Shown here in pieces: positions 39,744 to 41,571 of a stretch of DNA of 45,053 nucleotides. Below the pieces are notes generated by a model. The model ran no database searches and was not told the DNA's origin. It worked only from the letters and a program-made list of their open reading frames with translations. A program made the translations under genes and the position numbers. The stretch's first letter is position 1. Every line of letters begins with the position of its first letter. The stretch comes from Escherichia phage Msk, in sequence record MW057918; one strand, written 5' to 3'.

Positions 39744-39914
39744 ATGTTAACGATAATGATGACTAACCTTGAGTTAAATGAATTCAGCATTCTAGCTTTT
39801 ATTATGCCAATACTGCTAATTCTTCCATTCGCTGCGTACGTCGTAATGAAAGATAATGCAGAGTGGAAGCGGATTGATAAGAAAATCAAAGAAGCAACGC
39901 ACAGGAATAAGTAA
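39744..39914 (+). CDS. Small membrane protein
   Basis: 56-aa ORF with hydrophobic core FSILAFIMPILLILPFAAYVV. Confidence 0.35.
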   Translation: MLTIMMTNLELNEFSILAFIMPILLILPFAAYVVMKDNAEWKRIDKKIKEATHRNK

Positions 39915-39915
39915 A

Positions 39916-40155
39916 ATGTTCGGACTAAATGAAGCTATGTTTAATGCAGTAAAGCGCCAGGCTAAAAAGCTCAACGATAAGTATGAGTCATTAAGCAAGC
40001 TTGACCGCAAGAATGATAAGTTAGTTGCGGGTATAATCACTGAGATTTGGCAACCAGTTTCTACAGTTATTAGCAGGGATCGATTTGTGTGGGTAGCCGG
40101 GTATCTCAAAGGTCGAGTTGGTCATGACGAGAATGGGAATAGCCTTTATGAGTGA
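39916..40155 (+). CDS. Hypothetical protein
   Basis: Start at internal Met MFGLNEAMF; ORF-track 5' extension overlaps upstream gene. Confidence 0.35.
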   Translation: MFGLNEAMFNAVKRQAKKLNDKYESLSKLDRKNDKLVAGIITEIWQPVSTVISRDRFVWVAGYLKGRVGHDENGNSLYE

Positions 40156-40478
40156 GTTAACAATCTGGTTTATCGCGGGACTGATTGCTTGGGGTTACTT
40201 TTTAATCGTTTAGATGAGATTGTTAAAAAGAGCTTGCATCACTGACCGGAATTATCTAACATTAACAACGTAGACAAACGAGGCCACCAAGTGGCAACGG
40301 CGCACGGAGCGAACTACACGGTAAGCCCGCTGTTCATTAAGTAGCATATGCGGCACATTGGACCAAGAGGATAAGGCGTAAACCTCAACCCTTATGGGAC
40401 TTGGAAGACCTAGCGCAAATAGGCAGATTAACCGGCTGTATCAGGCAGCCCCGGAGCCGTAACCGGGACTCATTCAAA

Positions 40479-40556
40479 GCTCCGCTAGCTCAATTGGATA
40501 GCAGCAACGACCTTCTAAGTCGTAGGTTACTGGTTCGAGGCCAGTGCGGAGCGCCA
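40479..40556 (+). tRNA. tRNA-Arg (anticodon UCU)
   Basis: Cloverleaf by eye: acceptor GCTCCGC/GCGGAGC, anticodon stem ACGAC/GTCGT with loop CTTCTAA, T-arm ACTGG-TTCGAGG-CCAGT, discriminator G and encoded CCA. Confidence 0.75.
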
Positions 40557-40582
40557 AATTTAACCAATAATCCTGGGGGATT

Positions 40583-40769
40583 CATGAAAATTGTAACATT
40601 CATCGTGAAAGATTCAGAAACAGGTTCCGTTCAGAAGTTTAACGCAAAGATGGACTTCACGGAAACCCGAGTGGTCAAAGGATCACTTAATGGAGTTTCT
40701 GTATCCGCGCAGCTTCCGCATGGTTTTGATTACTTATTCGGAAAACAATCAGCAAATGACGATGAGTAG
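40583..40769 (+). CDS. Hypothetical small protein
   Basis: ATG at 40583 after GGGGGATT; longer ORF-track version overlaps the tRNA. Confidence 0.35.
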
Positions 40770-40953
40770 CTTGTGGGATGTGAAGTTGTCCATTCGCTTA
40801 ATGGGCCGCTCGTGCAAGAATTGCACTCAAGATTACATCGCGTCAGTTGCCGCAATCAGCGCTGAGGATGCGGTAGCGAAAGTAAAGAGTATGTCAGGAG
40901 CTGCCCCTGATACTCACAAATTCCTGGTAGCTTACGTTCGTGAGCGAAAGTAA
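40756..40953 (+). CDS. Hypothetical small protein
   Basis: Overlapping coupled start; 65 aa. Confidence 0.3.
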   Translation: MTMSSLWDVKLSIRLMGRSCKNCTQDYIASVAAISAEDAVAKVKSMSGAAPDTHKFLVAYVRERK

Positions 40954-40996
40954 AAAGCGTTATACCCTCGTTAAGTTTCGTTTCTCTCGTTGTTTT

Positions 40997-41023
40997 TAGC
41001 CCTCGCTTGAGGGCTTTTTTTCG
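40997..41023 (+). terminator. Rho-independent terminator
   Basis: agccctcgcttgagggcttttttt. Confidence 0.7.
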
Positions 41024-41064
41024 TCTGTAATATGGTATAATCTGACCTCAACAAAGGAGGATTT

Positions 41065-41571
41065 ATGAGCAAAGCAGCATTAAAGATTGGTGAGGGAAAC
41101 TTCAAGGCGCTCTACAACAAGAAGTATGGCGATATTGCTATGGTCGCAATCAACCGTAAGTACACGCCCGAGGAGGTATTTGACTTTGCAGTGAGATACT
41201 TTTCATGGGCTGAGAATGAGGCAATCAAGGCCATTGAGACGGCTGCATTCCAGGGTGTGGTTAGCGAGAGCCTGGTTCACAAGCCTCGAGTGTTCACCTT
41301 AACTGGCCTGGCGCTATTTATGGGTGTCAATATCAATAGATTCGCTCGCTGGCGTACTGAGGCTGGTTACTCTGACGTGATGGAATTCATTGATAACGTA
41401 ATTTATGAGCAGAAGTATCAGCTTGGCGTTGCAGGCATCATCAACTCCACAATCGTTGGTAAAGAGTTAGGGATTGATAAGCCGCAGGAGATTACCATTA
41501 GCAACAACTCCACAGCTAACGACGTTGATAGCATGAAGGAAGCGCTGGAGTCTGTGATTAGTAAGTTATAA
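41065..41571 (+). CDS. Terminase small subunit
   Basis: 168-aa ORF immediately upstream of large terminase with strong SD AAAGGAGG; assignment by position. Confidence 0.45.
   Translation: MSKAALKIGEGNFKALYNKKYGDIAMVAINRKYTPEEVFDFAVRYFSWAENEAIKAIETAAFQGVVSESLVHKPRVFTLTGLALFMGVNINRFARWRTEAGYSDVMEFIDNVIYEQKYQLGVAGIINSTIVGKELGIDKPQEITISNNSTANDVDSMKEALESVISKL

What the first reader, a model, noticed from the sequence alone, without database searches (positions are those of the whole stretch)
40216..40560. tRNA-Arg(UCU) preceded by a 260-bp hairpin-rich non-coding stretch
A canonical 78-nt tRNA with anticodon UCU (reads AGA/AGG, rare in enterobacteria) lies at 40479-40556 with encoded CCA. Upstream, 40216-40478 has no credible ORF but several stable hairpins (gccaccaagtggc; ggctgtatcaggcagcc; cccggagccgtaaccggg). 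These could be a processed leader, a degenerate second tRNA or a small RNA. The ORF-track protein 40401-40769 overlaps the tRNA and is rejected.
Basis: seen in the sequence. Interest (0 to 1): 0.45.

Follow-up and report, generated by a model that had tools for sequence, protein, structure and literature searches.

The report
New phage leader RNA before tRNA-Arg
The tRNA-Arg gene is real and ordinary, but the 210 bases in front of it are a conserved, folded RNA of an uncatalogued family that also occurs in the classic phages T1 and P1 and in many Pseudomonas-type phages, often with a transfer RNA gene placed directly behind it.

Summary
The window is Escherichia phage vB_ecoS_OzMSK, an Rtp/T1-like phage. 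The tRNA-Arg(UCU) at 40479-40556 is confirmed and already annotated. AGA and AGG make up 40% of the phage's Arg codons, so codon supply is a sufficient reason for it.

The upstream stretch is not unusually stable on its own (z = 0.19). Comparison shows it is a real RNA on the + strand. A conserved sigma-70-type promoter lies at 40234-40262, and the leader runs from about 40270 to 40478.

The 3' core is a hairpin, an A-rich linker, and two abutting hairpins, one with an ANNCGUAA loop. Its pattern matches 95 IMG/VR contigs and 37 bacterial genome contigs, about 29 of which a covariance model confirms as Proteobacteria. It also occurs in the P1 ban-operon leader and, without any tRNA, in T1. No Rfam family matches and no paper in the library contains the motif.

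The gene behind the leader varies: Arg-UCU, Arg-CCU, Ser-GCU, Asn/Thr, or an ORF. My best reading is an RNA gene whose 3' end RNase P makes at the adjacent tRNA. Its function is unproven. An antitermination role at the terminase terminator failed a direct check.

The parts
40118..40213 (+). Small conserved hydrophobic ORF (31 aa, ...LTIWFIAGLIAWGYFLIV*). It bounds the non-coding stretch on the left and is not part of the RNA.
   Evidence: ORF list. The sequence is conserved in relatives (alignment A1) and annotated as 'putative membrane protein' in EC3a. It is unannotated in OzMSK.
40220..40262 (+). Promoter: an A-rich tract at 40220-40233, -35 TTGCAT at 40234-40239, a 17-nt spacer holding the conserved CTGANNGG, and -10 TAACAT at 40257-40262.
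   Evidence: Read from the sequence. The positions are conserved, with hexamer-type variation: TAATAT, TAAAAT or TAGTAT in relatives, TTGACC-18-TAGTAT in T1 and TTGACG-17-TAAATT in LF82-12. Where an ORF has been inserted upstream (AugustePiccard, DTL), the promoter stays attached to the RNA. The simple scanner does not list it because only 3 of 6 bases match in the -35. No transcript mapping exists.
40270..40478 (+). Structured leader RNA, about 209 nt, starting with the invariant GUAGAC and ending at the RNase P site of the tRNA.
   Evidence: Covariation on alignment A2. Covariance model R1 scores 178 bits here, though the window sequence is in its seed. No Rfam match at E<=10. The ends are inferred, not mapped.
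40279..40299 (+). P1 hairpin (GGCCAC-CAA-GUGGC core at 40283-40295, plus two outer pairs).
   Evidence: Four of its pairs change on both sides: GCCAC/GUGGC, CCAUC/GAUGG, CUAGC/GCUAG and ACCAC/GUGGU. T1 has GCGC-AACUAA-GCGC and LF82-12 has GCGCU-UAG-AGCGC at the same place.
40296..40312 (+). Invariant block AACGGCGCACGGAGCG with the P2 hairpin (GCGC-ACGGA-GCG).
   Evidence: The 16-mer is identical in 19 of 21 relatives. The P2 pairs never vary within Braunvirinae. T1 (GUGAGA-CGAU-UCUCAC) and LF82-12 (GCAUCA-CGUU-UGAUGC) have a different hairpin at this position.
40325..40354 (+). P3 stem with an inner hairpin (outer 40325-40330 with 40350-40354; inner 40332-40334 with 40343-40345).
   Evidence: 100% paired. 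G-C changes to A-U in TR2 and ES. One pair is U-G, C-G or U-A, with U-G in 14 sequences, which would be a C-A mismatch on the other strand.
40355..40408 (+). Variable insert with optional small hairpins (GAGG...CCUC at 40367-40386; CCC-UUAU-GGG at 40389-40398).
   Evidence: Present, absent or replaced among relatives. EC3a, BEK6 and 12210I lack it, and Rtp has a further insert elsewhere.
40409..40434 (+). Hairpin CCUA-GCGCAAA-UAGG (40409-40423) followed by the A-rich linker CAGAUUAAC-CG (40424-40434).
   Evidence: 93% paired but with no covariation. Across the family a hairpin and an A-rich linker always precede the core. Linker base -4 covaries in Watson-Crick fashion with base 6 of the P4 loop: CG 21, GC 9, UG 5, other 8.
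40435..40449 (+). P4: a 4-bp stem closed by G-C, with the 7-nt loop UAUCAGG (family pattern U-N-N-N-A-N-N).
   Evidence: The two pattern-free pairs covary: CG 25/UA 9/AU 8 and GC 26/CG 14/UA 3 in 43 diverse sequences, 100% paired.
40450..40467 (+). P5: a 5-bp stem directly abutting P4, with the 8-nt loop AGCCGUAA (family pattern A-N-N-C-G-U-A-A).
   Evidence: The pattern-free pairs covary: GC 35/CG 3/GU 2 and CG 30/UA 9/GC 2, 99% paired. Model R2 matches window 40421-40474 at 54.9 bits.
40479..40556 (+). tRNA-Arg(UCU) with encoded CCA.
   Evidence: ARAGORN, Rfam tRNA at 53 bits, GenBank annotation.
40584..40953 (+). Two small annotated ORFs of the same transcription unit (40584-40769 and 40690-40953).
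   Evidence: GenBank CDS_014 and CDS_015; ORF list.
40998..41022 (+). Intrinsic terminator (AGCCCUCGCUUGAGGGCU followed by U7) that closes the unit.
   Evidence: Terminator scan. Conserved in relatives and annotated in EC3a, MM01 and T1. The conserved extended -10 promoter TGGTATAAT (41033-41041) for terS follows it directly.

Best explanation
The locus is a short, self-contained transcription unit in five parts: a sigma-70-type promoter (40234-40262), a structured leader RNA of about 209 nt (40270-40478), tRNA-Arg(UCU) (40479-40556), two small ORFs, and an intrinsic terminator (40998-41022).

The tRNA supplies decoding of AGA/AGG, which the phage uses about five to six times more often than E. 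coli does.

The leader is not junk spacer and not a decayed tRNA. It belongs to an uncatalogued family of phage RNAs. The conserved core of that family is a hairpin, an A-rich linker, and two abutting hairpins. P4 has a G-C-closed stem and a 7-nt loop, U-N-N-N-A-N-N. P5 has an 8-nt loop, A-N-N-C-G-U-A-A. One linker-to-loop tertiary pair is also supported.

I read the RNA itself as the product. It is made from its own promoter, and in this phage its 3' end is cut by host RNase P when that enzyme matures the adjacent tRNA, so one cut yields both molecules. That would explain why unrelated phages have repeatedly placed different tRNA genes 5-36 nt behind the same core.

The near-invariant loops, kept across phages of different hosts (gamma- and beta-proteobacteria in the bacterial-genome scan), point to binding of a conserved host component. 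Given the linkage to tRNA genes, I guess that this component belongs to the tRNA-handling machinery.

Shown here: the tRNA; the codon bias; the conserved structure and its strand; the family's distribution; the swapping of the downstream gene; and the terminator followed by a separate terS promoter. Inferred: the transcription start, the RNase P release, the stability of the freed RNA, and its target and function.
For: The tRNA is confirmed. AGA+AGG are 40% of Arg codons, 19.1 per 1000.

Structure in 21 Braunvirinae: 98.5% of cells paired, 9 pairs changed on both sides, 52 such cells against 15 +/- 3 in shuffles, and slid controls at 20-43% paired.

Strand: U-G pairs in P3 (14 of 21 sequences), and G-U or U-G pairs in P4, P5 and the tertiary pair. 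These would be A-C mismatches on the other strand.

Family: the 19-base pattern matches 95 IMG/VR contigs and 37 bacterial genome contigs. Of the latter, 29 score 25-72 bits with model R2, and these are mostly Pseudomonas, Alcaligenaceae and Herminiimonas, plus Citrobacter. The positions the pattern leaves free covary: 99.5% paired, covariation score 0.397 against 0.100.

P1 carries the core 5 nt upstream of trnA in the ban-operon leader. T1 has a divergent copy at the same genome position with no tRNA, behind TTGACC-18-TAGTAT.

The core sits close to a promoter in Braunvirinae, T1, LF82-12, L050 and L046.

The gene behind the core varies: Arg-UCU in three sequence types, Arg-CCU, Ser-GCU, Asn+Thr, Ser-UGA and Met-CAU. 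BEK2's core is 100% identical to OzMSK's while its tRNA is only 72% identical.

No Rfam family matches, and no paper in the library contains the motif string in this sense.
Against: There is no transcript, end-mapping or stability data for any member, so the start at G40270 and the RNase P release are inferences.

Most members outside Drexlerviridae and P1 have no tRNA within 40 nt: only about 4-5 of about 86 loci do (Rfam adds one more, L079). RNase P therefore cannot be the general way the 3' end is made.

No terminator follows the core, and the genes downstream are on the same strand. That also fits a cis-acting leader element.

About 13 nt at the 5' end are unpaired, so the RNA is not an obvious 5'-end protector.

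Within Braunvirinae the sequences are closely related, so part of the signal is inherited rather than independent.

The family-wide alignment was gathered with a pattern that fixes 19 positions. Conservation at those positions is circular, and only the free positions count as evidence.
Confidence: 0.4

Rival explanations
1. The leader is a cis-acting element that acts on transcription elongation, either put-like or Nus/boxA-like. As it emerges, the nascent RNA would bind the RNA polymerase that is making it. This would protect the long untranslated transcript (leader plus tRNA) and the downstream genes from pausing, Rho or terminators.
For: It is promoter-proximal in at least five lineages. 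The core is two hairpins, many phages carry two copies, it is on the same strand as diverse downstream genes, and it has no terminator of its own. HK022 put RNAs share this grammar: about 70 nt, two stem-loops, two copies, just downstream of early promoters (PMC9378689). A weak boxA-like string (GCUCAUUAA) sits in P3.
Against: The terminator upstream of terS does not need to be read through. A conserved extended -10 promoter (ATATGGTATAAT; ATATGGTAAAAT in T1) lies between it and terS in Braunvirinae and T1. Outside Braunvirinae I found no enrichment of downstream terminators. Model R2 finds nothing in HK022. In P1 the strong DicF-type terminator lies upstream of the element. By my own estimate the boxA-like match is within chance, p of about 0.1-0.5. 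This idea also does not explain the repeated placement of tRNAs 5-36 nt behind the core.
Confidence: 0.17
2. The leader is a cis-acting platform for processing or expressing whatever lies behind it. It would guide RNase P or RNase E cleavage, or the folding of the adjacent tRNA or mRNA, and have no life of its own.
For: tRNAs of many kinds, or a ribosome-binding site, sit at short and fairly fixed distances behind P5: 5-12 or 34-36 nt to a tRNA, and 17-30 nt to a start codon in 7 loci. The leader stays constant while the downstream gene is swapped.
Against: Most members have neither a tRNA nor a nearby start codon. In the bulk of 113 instances the next ORF starts 50-300 nt away. E. coli tRNAs need no such leader (established knowledge). 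About 20 near-invariant bases and a tertiary pair are more than a cleavage guide would need.
Confidence: 0.12
3. The core is a small self-cleaving ribozyme or a ligand-binding aptamer of a new class.
For: There are about 20 near-invariant bases in a core of about 50 nt with a tertiary pair. It lies in phage non-coding regions, where small ribozymes are common. tRNA-adjacent HDV-like theta ribozymes set a precedent (PMC10879173).
Against: It matches no ribozyme or riboswitch model in Rfam, even at E<=10. There is no expression platform: no terminator and no sequestered Shine-Dalgarno sequence. The downstream genes are of no consistent class. The helix order does not fit an HDV-like fold, judged by my own threading rather than by a tool.
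Confidence: 0.1
4. The stretch is a decayed tRNA gene or a DNA-level site (pac, origin or operator) with no RNA function.
For: It lies next to a tRNA and upstream of the terminase genes. In T1 and LF82-12 the P4 loop (AUAGUGGUAA) looks like a D-loop, and the P5 loop ends like an anticodon CGU followed by AA.
Against: No tRNA is detected there. Compensatory changes including G-U pairs are specific to one strand. The element is kept in more than 100 unrelated phage and prophage contigs and in many different gene contexts. It stands alone in T1.
Confidence: 0.04

Closest known systems
Phage T4 stable RNAs 'species 1 and 2' (rnaC, rnaD) in the T4 tRNA gene cluster (from my own knowledge, not tested here)
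   Same: These are phage-encoded, structured, non-tRNA RNAs. They are transcribed together with tRNA genes and freed by the host tRNA-processing enzymes. Their function is still unknown.
   Different: They lie among and behind the T4 tRNAs rather than at the 5' end of the transcript. I did not compare sequence or structure. The family here is not tied to tRNAs in most of its members.
HK022 putL/putR antiterminator RNAs
   Same: Both lie close to a promoter, have about two hairpins, occur as two copies per phage, act without a dedicated phage protein, and are found in early operon leaders (PMC9378689).
   Different: Model R2 finds no similarity in HK022. In OzMSK the only downstream terminator is followed by its own promoter. 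The put RNAs are not linked to tRNA genes.
ROOL and GOLLD large ornate RNAs of phages and prophages (Rfam families)
   Same: They are conserved, structured phage RNAs of unknown function. From my own knowledge they are often adjacent to tRNA genes.
   Different: They are 500-800 nt long, against 130-300 nt here. No Rfam match was found at E<=10. The hosts are mainly Firmicutes and gut or lake metagenomes, against Proteobacteria here.
HDV-like theta ribozymes next to phage tRNAs (PMC10879173)
   Same: Both are small structured phage RNAs placed within a few nucleotides of tRNA genes, with a proposed role in making RNA ends.
   Different: Theta ribozymes sit at the 3' end of the tRNA, have a nested double-pseudoknot fold, and occur in Bacteroidota and Bacillota gut phages. 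This element sits 5' of the tRNA, has a different helix order, and occurs in phages of Proteobacteria.
P1/P7 C4 antisense RNA, whose precursor is cut by RNase P (from my own knowledge)
   Same: It is a phage RNA whose end is made by host RNase P, and phage P1 carries both C4 and the element described here.
   Different: C4 is a 77-nt antisense repressor with its own Rfam family. No match to it was found here.
E. coli argU, tRNA-Arg(UCU)
   Same: It has the same anticodon and the same decoding task (AGA/AGG).
   Different: The phage copy has its own sequence, and within Braunvirinae it has been replaced several times: 70-79% identity between types, and CCU in TR2 and ES.

Membership tests
tRNA (Rfam RF00005), isoacceptor Arg-UCU | Cloverleaf that scores above the family threshold, with a 7-nt anticodon loop carrying UCU | tested here: met
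   53 bits against a gathering score of 29. ARAGORN reports anticodon tct at position 36.
tRNA (second, degenerate copy in 40216-40478) | Any detectable cloverleaf or partial tRNA match upstream | tested here: not met
   ARAGORN finds one tRNA only. No tRNA-clan match was found in 39800-41100 at E<=10 other than the real tRNA.
Any curated Rfam 15 family | Covariance-model match at the gathering score, or at least E<=10 | tested here: not met
   Window, 14 family loci, a Pseudomonas prophage member and the P1 member. Only tRNAs and chance-level hits were found.
HK022 put antiterminator RNA | Sequence or structure similarity to putL/putR | tested here: not met
   Model R2 has no hit at E<=1 in the whole HK022 genome. 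A motif regex finds nothing in the immunity region.
HK022 put antiterminator RNA | Lies just downstream of a promoter and upstream of terminators that must be read through | tested here: inconclusive
   It is promoter-proximal. However, the one downstream terminator is followed by a conserved extended -10 promoter for terS, and there is no terminator enrichment in other lineages.
HK022 put antiterminator RNA | Binds the RNA polymerase beta' zinc-binding domain and suppresses termination | not testable with these tools
   This needs in-vitro transcription or reporter assays.
RNase P RNA (minimal catalytic core) | Long-range P4 helix between a CR-I-like (AAGUCCG) and a CR-V-like (AACCGGCU) segment | tested here: not met
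   Both strings exist, but their bases covary with local partners in P3 and P4 instead. The proposed P4 loses pairs in 8 sequences. No RNase P model matches.
HDV-like / theta ribozymes | Nested double pseudoknot, with the cleavage site at the 3' end of a tRNA | tested here: not met
   The element is 5' of the tRNA. After the P4 hairpin there is no strand that could form P1 (sequence reading). No HDV-family match was found. Placement of theta ribozymes is from PMC10879173.
T-loop motif (in the P4 loop) | Five-base U-N-N-R-A turn on a G-C closing pair, with the two following bases free to pair elsewhere | tested here: inconclusive
   The loop starts with U in at least 90% of the 43-sequence set A3 (76 of 80 loops by my tally). 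Base 6 of the loop covaries with linker base -4. However, A at loop position 5 and the closing G-C pair were fixed by my search pattern, the fourth base is not always a purine, and no 3D test was possible.
T4 species 1/2 stable RNAs | Homology to rnaC or rnaD | not tested
   The T4 region was not fetched. The resemblance is functional only and comes from memory.

The most novel reading that the evidence does not exclude
The conserved P4-P5 core copies the D-arm plus anticodon-arm half of a tRNA. The two helices abut as they do in a tRNA. The T1-type P4 loop AUAGUGGUAA looks like a D-loop. The P5 loop ends in CGU-A-A, like an anticodon followed by A37 and A38.

On this reading the core is a phage-made decoy or docking RNA for a conserved host enzyme that works on anticodon loops, such as an anticodon nuclease used in defence or a tRNA-modifying enzyme. 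Phages of many hosts would then express it from strong early promoters alongside their spare tRNAs. That would make it a new class of RNA-based counter-defence, directly testable in T1 and P1.
Probability: 0.12. Interest if true: 0.85.

Novelty: new variant of a known kind. Interest (0 to 1): 0.6.

Why it matters
T1 and P1 are among the oldest laboratory phages, yet this conserved RNA in both is unannotated, absent from Rfam, and not found in the searchable literature.

It gives a compact, covariation-supported RNA with near-invariant loops. It occurs in more than 100 phage and prophage contigs of Proteobacteria. It is also repeatedly fused to tRNA genes, which are now a focus of work on phage counter-defence.

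Because genetics is easy in OzMSK, Rtp, T1 and P1, the function can be tested directly by deletion, compensatory mutants, RNase P dependence and pull-down.

For genome annotation there are two practical points. The 'gap' before the Braunvirinae tRNA is a gene-like feature. And the tRNA behind it is a swappable insert, not a fixed partner.

Tried and rejected
1. Single-sequence folding. Neither strand is more stable than shuffles (z = 0.19 and -1.05), so thermodynamics alone gives no support.

2. RNase P-like core. AAGUCCG...AACCGGCU resembles CR-I/CR-V and could form a P4 helix with a bulged U. I rejected it because those bases covary with local partners, and no RNase P model matches.

3. HDV/theta, hammerhead, pistol and hatchet ribozymes, and cobalamin, ykkC and other aptamers. 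I recalled resemblances in short strings, but there are no Rfam hits at E<=10.

4. Antitermination of the terS terminator. I first argued there was no room for a promoter between the terminator and terS. Reading the sequence showed a perfect extended -10 (TGGTATAAT), conserved from Rtp to T1, so that argument failed.

5. Terminator enrichment downstream of the core. The peak at +250 to +750 comes only from Braunvirinae.

6. Fixed spacing to a start codon. Only 7 of 113 instances have a start codon 17-30 nt behind P5.

7. A pseudoknot between the P5 loop and an upstream ACGNN. It is present in all Braunvirinae, with one compensatory change in LF82-12. Family-wide it is at chance level: 12 of 70 against about 20% expected.

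8. A boxA-like string in P3. By my own estimate it is within chance.

9. Gene neighbourhood. Pfam on 19 flanking proteins gave unrelated functions: portal, DnaB, DNA polymerase A, methylases, RdgC and Zeta-toxin-like kinase. There is no constant protein partner.

10. Medea1 and phiPSA1. They match only the upstream part of the Pseudomonas elements and lack the core, so their cI-adjacent position cannot be carried over to the core.

11. Finding HK022 putL/putR as an inverted repeat gave nothing usable.

12. Literature searches for Drexlerviridae non-coding RNA, T-loop phage RNAs and the motif string. Nothing relevant was found. The supplement of the 10,006-candidate phage RNA survey is not held, so I cannot exclude that this motif is among its unnamed candidates.
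Full report
IDENTITY OF THE WINDOW. The window is the complete genome of Escherichia phage vB_ecoS_OzMSK (PQ659294.1, 45,053 bp), rotated so that window position = record position + 36,771. Its closest named relatives are Rtp, FP, EC3a and the BASEL phages AugustePiccard and JeanPiccard, all Drexlerviridae of subfamily Braunvirinae.

THE OBSERVATION. ARAGORN finds a single tRNA in the window: tRNA-Arg(tct) at 40479-40556 on the + strand. Rfam's tRNA model gives 53 bits against a threshold of 29. CCA is encoded, and GenBank annotates the gene. Between the stop of CDS_012 (40155) and the tRNA nothing is annotated. The only ORFs are 30-34 aa on the minus strand and a TTG-started ORF that runs through the tRNA.

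Over the 74 annotated CDS, AGA (161) and AGG (100) make up 40% of Arg codons, 19.1 per 1000 codons, equally in structural and other genes. From general knowledge, E. coli uses these codons at roughly 3-4 per 1000 in total. Codon supply is therefore a sufficient reason for the tRNA.

As a single sequence, though, the stretch folds no better than shuffled versions (z = 0.19 on the + strand and -1.05 on the minus strand). On that evidence alone 'hairpin-rich' would be chance.

COMPARATIVE EVIDENCE WITHIN BRAUNVIRINAE. The non-coding stretch is present in 88 phage records, 74 of them over at least 80% of its length. I aligned 21 distinct versions from the predicted RNA start to the tRNA. There are 63 invariant columns, including a 16-mer, AACGGCGCACGGAGCG, that is identical in 19 of 21.

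RNAalifold and my own refinement give helices P1, P2, P3 (with an inner hairpin), a small hairpin, P4 and P5. On this structure:
- 98.5% of cells are standard pairs.
- 9 pairs show changes on both sides, in 52 cells, against 15 +/- 3 in column shuffles.
- Sliding the partners by 1-3 columns drops pairing to 20-43%.

P1 appears as GCCAC/GUGGC, CCAUC/GAUGG, CUAGC/GCUAG and ACCAC/GUGGU. P4 appears as GGCUG/CAGCC or GGUCG/CGACC. P5 appears as CCCGG/CCGGG or GCUGG/CCAGC. A U-G pair in P3 (14 sequences) and other G-U pairs would be A-C mismatches on the opposite strand, so the structure belongs to the + strand RNA. A variable region between P3 and the small hairpin holds optional hairpins or is absent, as is usual for structured RNAs.

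PROMOTER AND ENDS. Directly upstream lies TTGCAT-17 nt-TAACAT (40234-40262), preceded by an A-rich tract. In relatives the -10 reads TAATAT, TAAAAT or TAGTAT while the T, A and final T stay fixed. In phages where an extra ORF has been inserted upstream, the promoter stays attached to the RNA. The invariant GUAGAC begins 8 nt after the -10, so I place the start at about G40270. The 3' end would be the RNase P cut at 40478/40479. Both ends are inferred.

Downstream come two small ORFs and a strong intrinsic terminator at 40998-41022.

THE SAME ELEMENT OUTSIDE BRAUNVIRINAE. The 16-mer occurs only in Braunvirinae-type contigs; its other IMG/VR hits are chance matches inside unrelated sequence. A pattern built from the invariant positions of P4-P5 has 19 fixed bases: CGGNNGNNNNANNCNNCNCNGGANNCGTAACCNG. 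It matched 95 IMG/VR contigs. By my own estimate less than one match is expected by chance, because such a pattern occurs about once per 2.7x10^11 positions.

Most of these contigs are unrelated and of higher G+C. The positions left free by the pattern covary strongly. In 43 diverse sequences P4 and P5 are 99.5% paired, with pair types such as CG 25/UA 9/AU 8 and GC 26/CG 14/UA 3. The covariation score is 0.397 against 0.100 in shuffles, and slid controls are 20-47% paired.

The same pattern matched 37 contigs in the one-genome-per-species bacterial set. Of these, 29 are confirmed by covariance model R2. All 29 are Proteobacteria: mostly Pseudomonas, Alcaligenaceae, Herminiimonas and Burkholderiaceae, plus Halopseudomonas, Aliidiomarina, Citrobacter, Geminicoccus and Nitratidesulfovibrio. 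The Actinobacteria, Acidobacteria and Bacteroidota hits fail the model, in line with the 4 or so chance hits expected.

A mutual-information scan found one more contact. Linker base -4 pairs with the sixth base of the P4 loop (CG 21, GC 9, UG 5, other 8). A weaker neighbouring pair is also seen.

The common core is therefore a hairpin, an A-rich linker, then CG-P4 (4 bp, G-C closed, loop U-N-N-N-A-N-N) abutting P5 (5 bp, loop A-N-N-C-G-U-A-A), followed by CA. Model R1, built on the whole Braunvirinae leader, aligns other members convincingly only over this core. P1-P3 are thus a Drexlerviridae-specific 5' extension.

P1 AND T1. One IMG/VR member turned out to be P1-like. In phage P1 the core lies at record 69,297-69,350, 5 nt before trnA. 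It sits in the long leader of the C1-controlled ban operon, downstream of the 'dicF-like region' and its terminator. A weaker second copy follows trnT. Nothing is annotated there in P1 or in 575 E. coli plasmid-prophage records.

Phage T1 has no tRNA at the equivalent place. Yet the 164-nt gap between gp58 and gp57 holds TTGACC-18-TAGTAT, then GUAGACAGACGAG, two hairpins of different sequence at the P1 and P2 positions, and a divergent P4-P5 with the loop ...CCCGUAA. The ribosome-binding site of gp57 follows 23 nt later (R2 18.4 bits, E = 6e-5). This T1 segment is kept at 92-100% identity over its full length in 63 of the 70 Tunavirus-type records that match it.

Another T1-like phage, LF82-12, has the same leader followed after 9 nt by tRNA-Ser(GCU).

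THE GENE BEHIND THE LEADER IS SWAPPABLE. Behind the core one finds the following:
- nothing, or an ORF (T1 and most Pseudomonas-type members);
- tRNA-Arg(UCU) in three sequence types that are 70-79% identical;
- tRNA-Arg(CCU) (TR2, ES, Rao1);
- tRNA-Ser(GCU);
- tRNA-Asn plus tRNA-Thr (P1);
- tRNA-Ser(UGA) and tRNA-Met/Ile(CAU).

BEK2 has a core 100% identical to OzMSK's but a tRNA only 72% identical. A tRNA within 40 nt is rare among the other members, about 4-5 of 86 loci. By my own estimate that is still far more than the roughly 0.1% expected for a random intergenic site, and it has arisen with different tRNAs in at least six lineages.

Many phages carry two copies 25-1000 nt apart. The flanking proteins are unrelated from one phage to the next, and the downstream genes are on the same strand.

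WHAT IT IS NOT. No Rfam family matches any member, even at E<=10.

An RNase P-like reading (AAGUCCG pairing with AACCGGCU) is contradicted by covariation.

Theta ribozymes sit on the other side of tRNAs and have another fold.

HK022 has no match.

My own idea that the leader lets RNA polymerase read through the terminator into the late genes failed. A perfect extended -10 promoter (TGGTATAAT, 41033-41041) lies between the terminator and terS and is conserved from Rtp to T1. The leader-tRNA unit is therefore insulated, and the late operon has its own promoter.

No general downstream terminator, no fixed spacing to start codons and no family-wide pseudoknot from the P5 loop were found.

HOW IT MOST LIKELY WORKS. 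The facts to explain are these:
- position at the very 5' end of a transcript from a good promoter;
- about 20 near-invariant bases and a tertiary pair in a core of about 50 nt, kept across phages of different hosts (gamma- and beta-proteobacteria);
- no constant protein neighbour;
- tandem copies;
- repeated capture of tRNA genes a few bases downstream.

I read the RNA itself as the product, a phage non-coding RNA that binds a conserved host component. I read the tRNA as a useful passenger that also provides a clean 3' end through RNase P. T4's stable RNAs and the P1 C4 precursor use the tRNA-processing machinery in a similar way (my own knowledge). I put this at about 0.4.

The rivals are a cis-acting element on transcription elongation (0.17), a pure processing platform for the downstream gene (0.12), a new ribozyme or aptamer (0.1), and a DNA-level site or dead tRNA (0.04).

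A speculative refinement is that P4-P5 mimics the D-arm and anticodon-arm half of a tRNA and acts as a decoy for an anticodon-loop enzyme or nuclease. I give that about 0.12.

NOVELTY AND VERDICT. The tRNA is known and ordinary. The leader is a real, selected RNA structure that is unannotated in every record examined, absent from Rfam 15, and absent, as a sequence string, from the searchable literature. I could not check the unnamed candidates of the 2023 phage RNA survey.

It is best filed as a new family within a known kind, namely phage structured RNAs co-transcribed with tRNAs, with function unknown. Its presence in T1 and P1 makes it unusually easy to test. Interest 0.6.

Noticed in passing
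window 40998-41064: An intrinsic terminator is followed at once by a perfect extended -10 promoter (ATATGGTATAAT, 41030-41041) and the terS ribosome-binding site. The pair is conserved in Rtp, EC3a, FP, DTL, MM01 and ACG-M12, and as ATATGGTAAAAT in T1. It looks like the late-operon promoter of Drexlerviridae, and the simple promoter scanner misses it.
   Followed up: partly
window 40118-40213: An unannotated 31-aa hydrophobic ORF (MVMTRMGIAFMSELTIWFIAGLIAWGYFLIV) is conserved in relatives and annotated as 'putative membrane protein' in EC3a. It overlaps the end of CDS_012.
   Followed up: partly
window 40240-40256 (promoter spacer): The spacer motif CTGANNGG(A/T)A is conserved between Braunvirinae, T1 and LF82-12, although promoter spacers normally drift. 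It may be an operator for a phage or host regulator.
   Followed up: no
L132 (phage P1 NC_005856) 1674-1727 and 2056-2110: The P1 ban-operon leader carries the RNA core 5 nt before trnA. A weaker second copy follows trnT, on the strand opposite the annotated plp gene. Neither copy is annotated, and the 'dicF-like region' with its terminator lies about 400 nt upstream.
   Followed up: partly
L041, L055, L068, L109 and similar Pseudomonas-type contigs, about 250 nt upstream of the core: An 18-bp long-range stem (GCAUCGGAGUGUGAUCUG ... CAGAUCACACCCCGAUGC) encloses inserts of about 100 nt that differ completely between phages. This upstream part also occurs without the core in Medea1 and phiPSA1, next to the cI repressor region. 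It may be a separate, larger RNA or a site for mobile inserts.
   Followed up: partly
L010/L019 (TR2, Rao1), L011 (ES), L014/L016 (BEK2, T145P1), L174 (LF82-12), L013 (PCEc3): The tRNA behind the leader differs between close relatives: Arg-CCU in TR2, Rao1 and ES; a 72%-identical Arg-UCU in BEK2 and T145P1; Ser-GCU in LF82-12. In PCEc3 the record annotates a 102-nt 'tRNA-Ile' after tRNA-Arg that ARAGORN does not confirm.
   Followed up: partly
tRNAs next to the core in L074/L132, L097, L126, L050, L174 and Braunvirinae: Most tRNAs found beside the core read ANN codons: Arg-UCU/CCU, Ser-GCU, Asn-GUU, Thr-UGU and Ile/Met-CAU/UAU. These tRNAs share U36-A37 and the t6A modification. Ser-UGA and an upstream Tyr-GUA are exceptions. 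This was not tested against the background of phage tRNA content.
   Followed up: no
window 40584-40953: The two annotated small CDS (40584-40769 and 40690-40953) overlap by 80 nt in different frames. Relatives mostly annotate a single 183-nt ORF here, so one of the two calls may be wrong.
   Followed up: no
L099 3482-5053 and L097 6109-7725 (minus strand in the locus): Proteins of about 530 aa with a Zeta-toxin/AAA_33 kinase domain lie just upstream of the RNA core in two unrelated viral contigs. T1 and OzMSK encode polynucleotide-kinase-like and phosphatase proteins elsewhere. This may be a link to RNA repair, or a coincidence.
   Followed up: no
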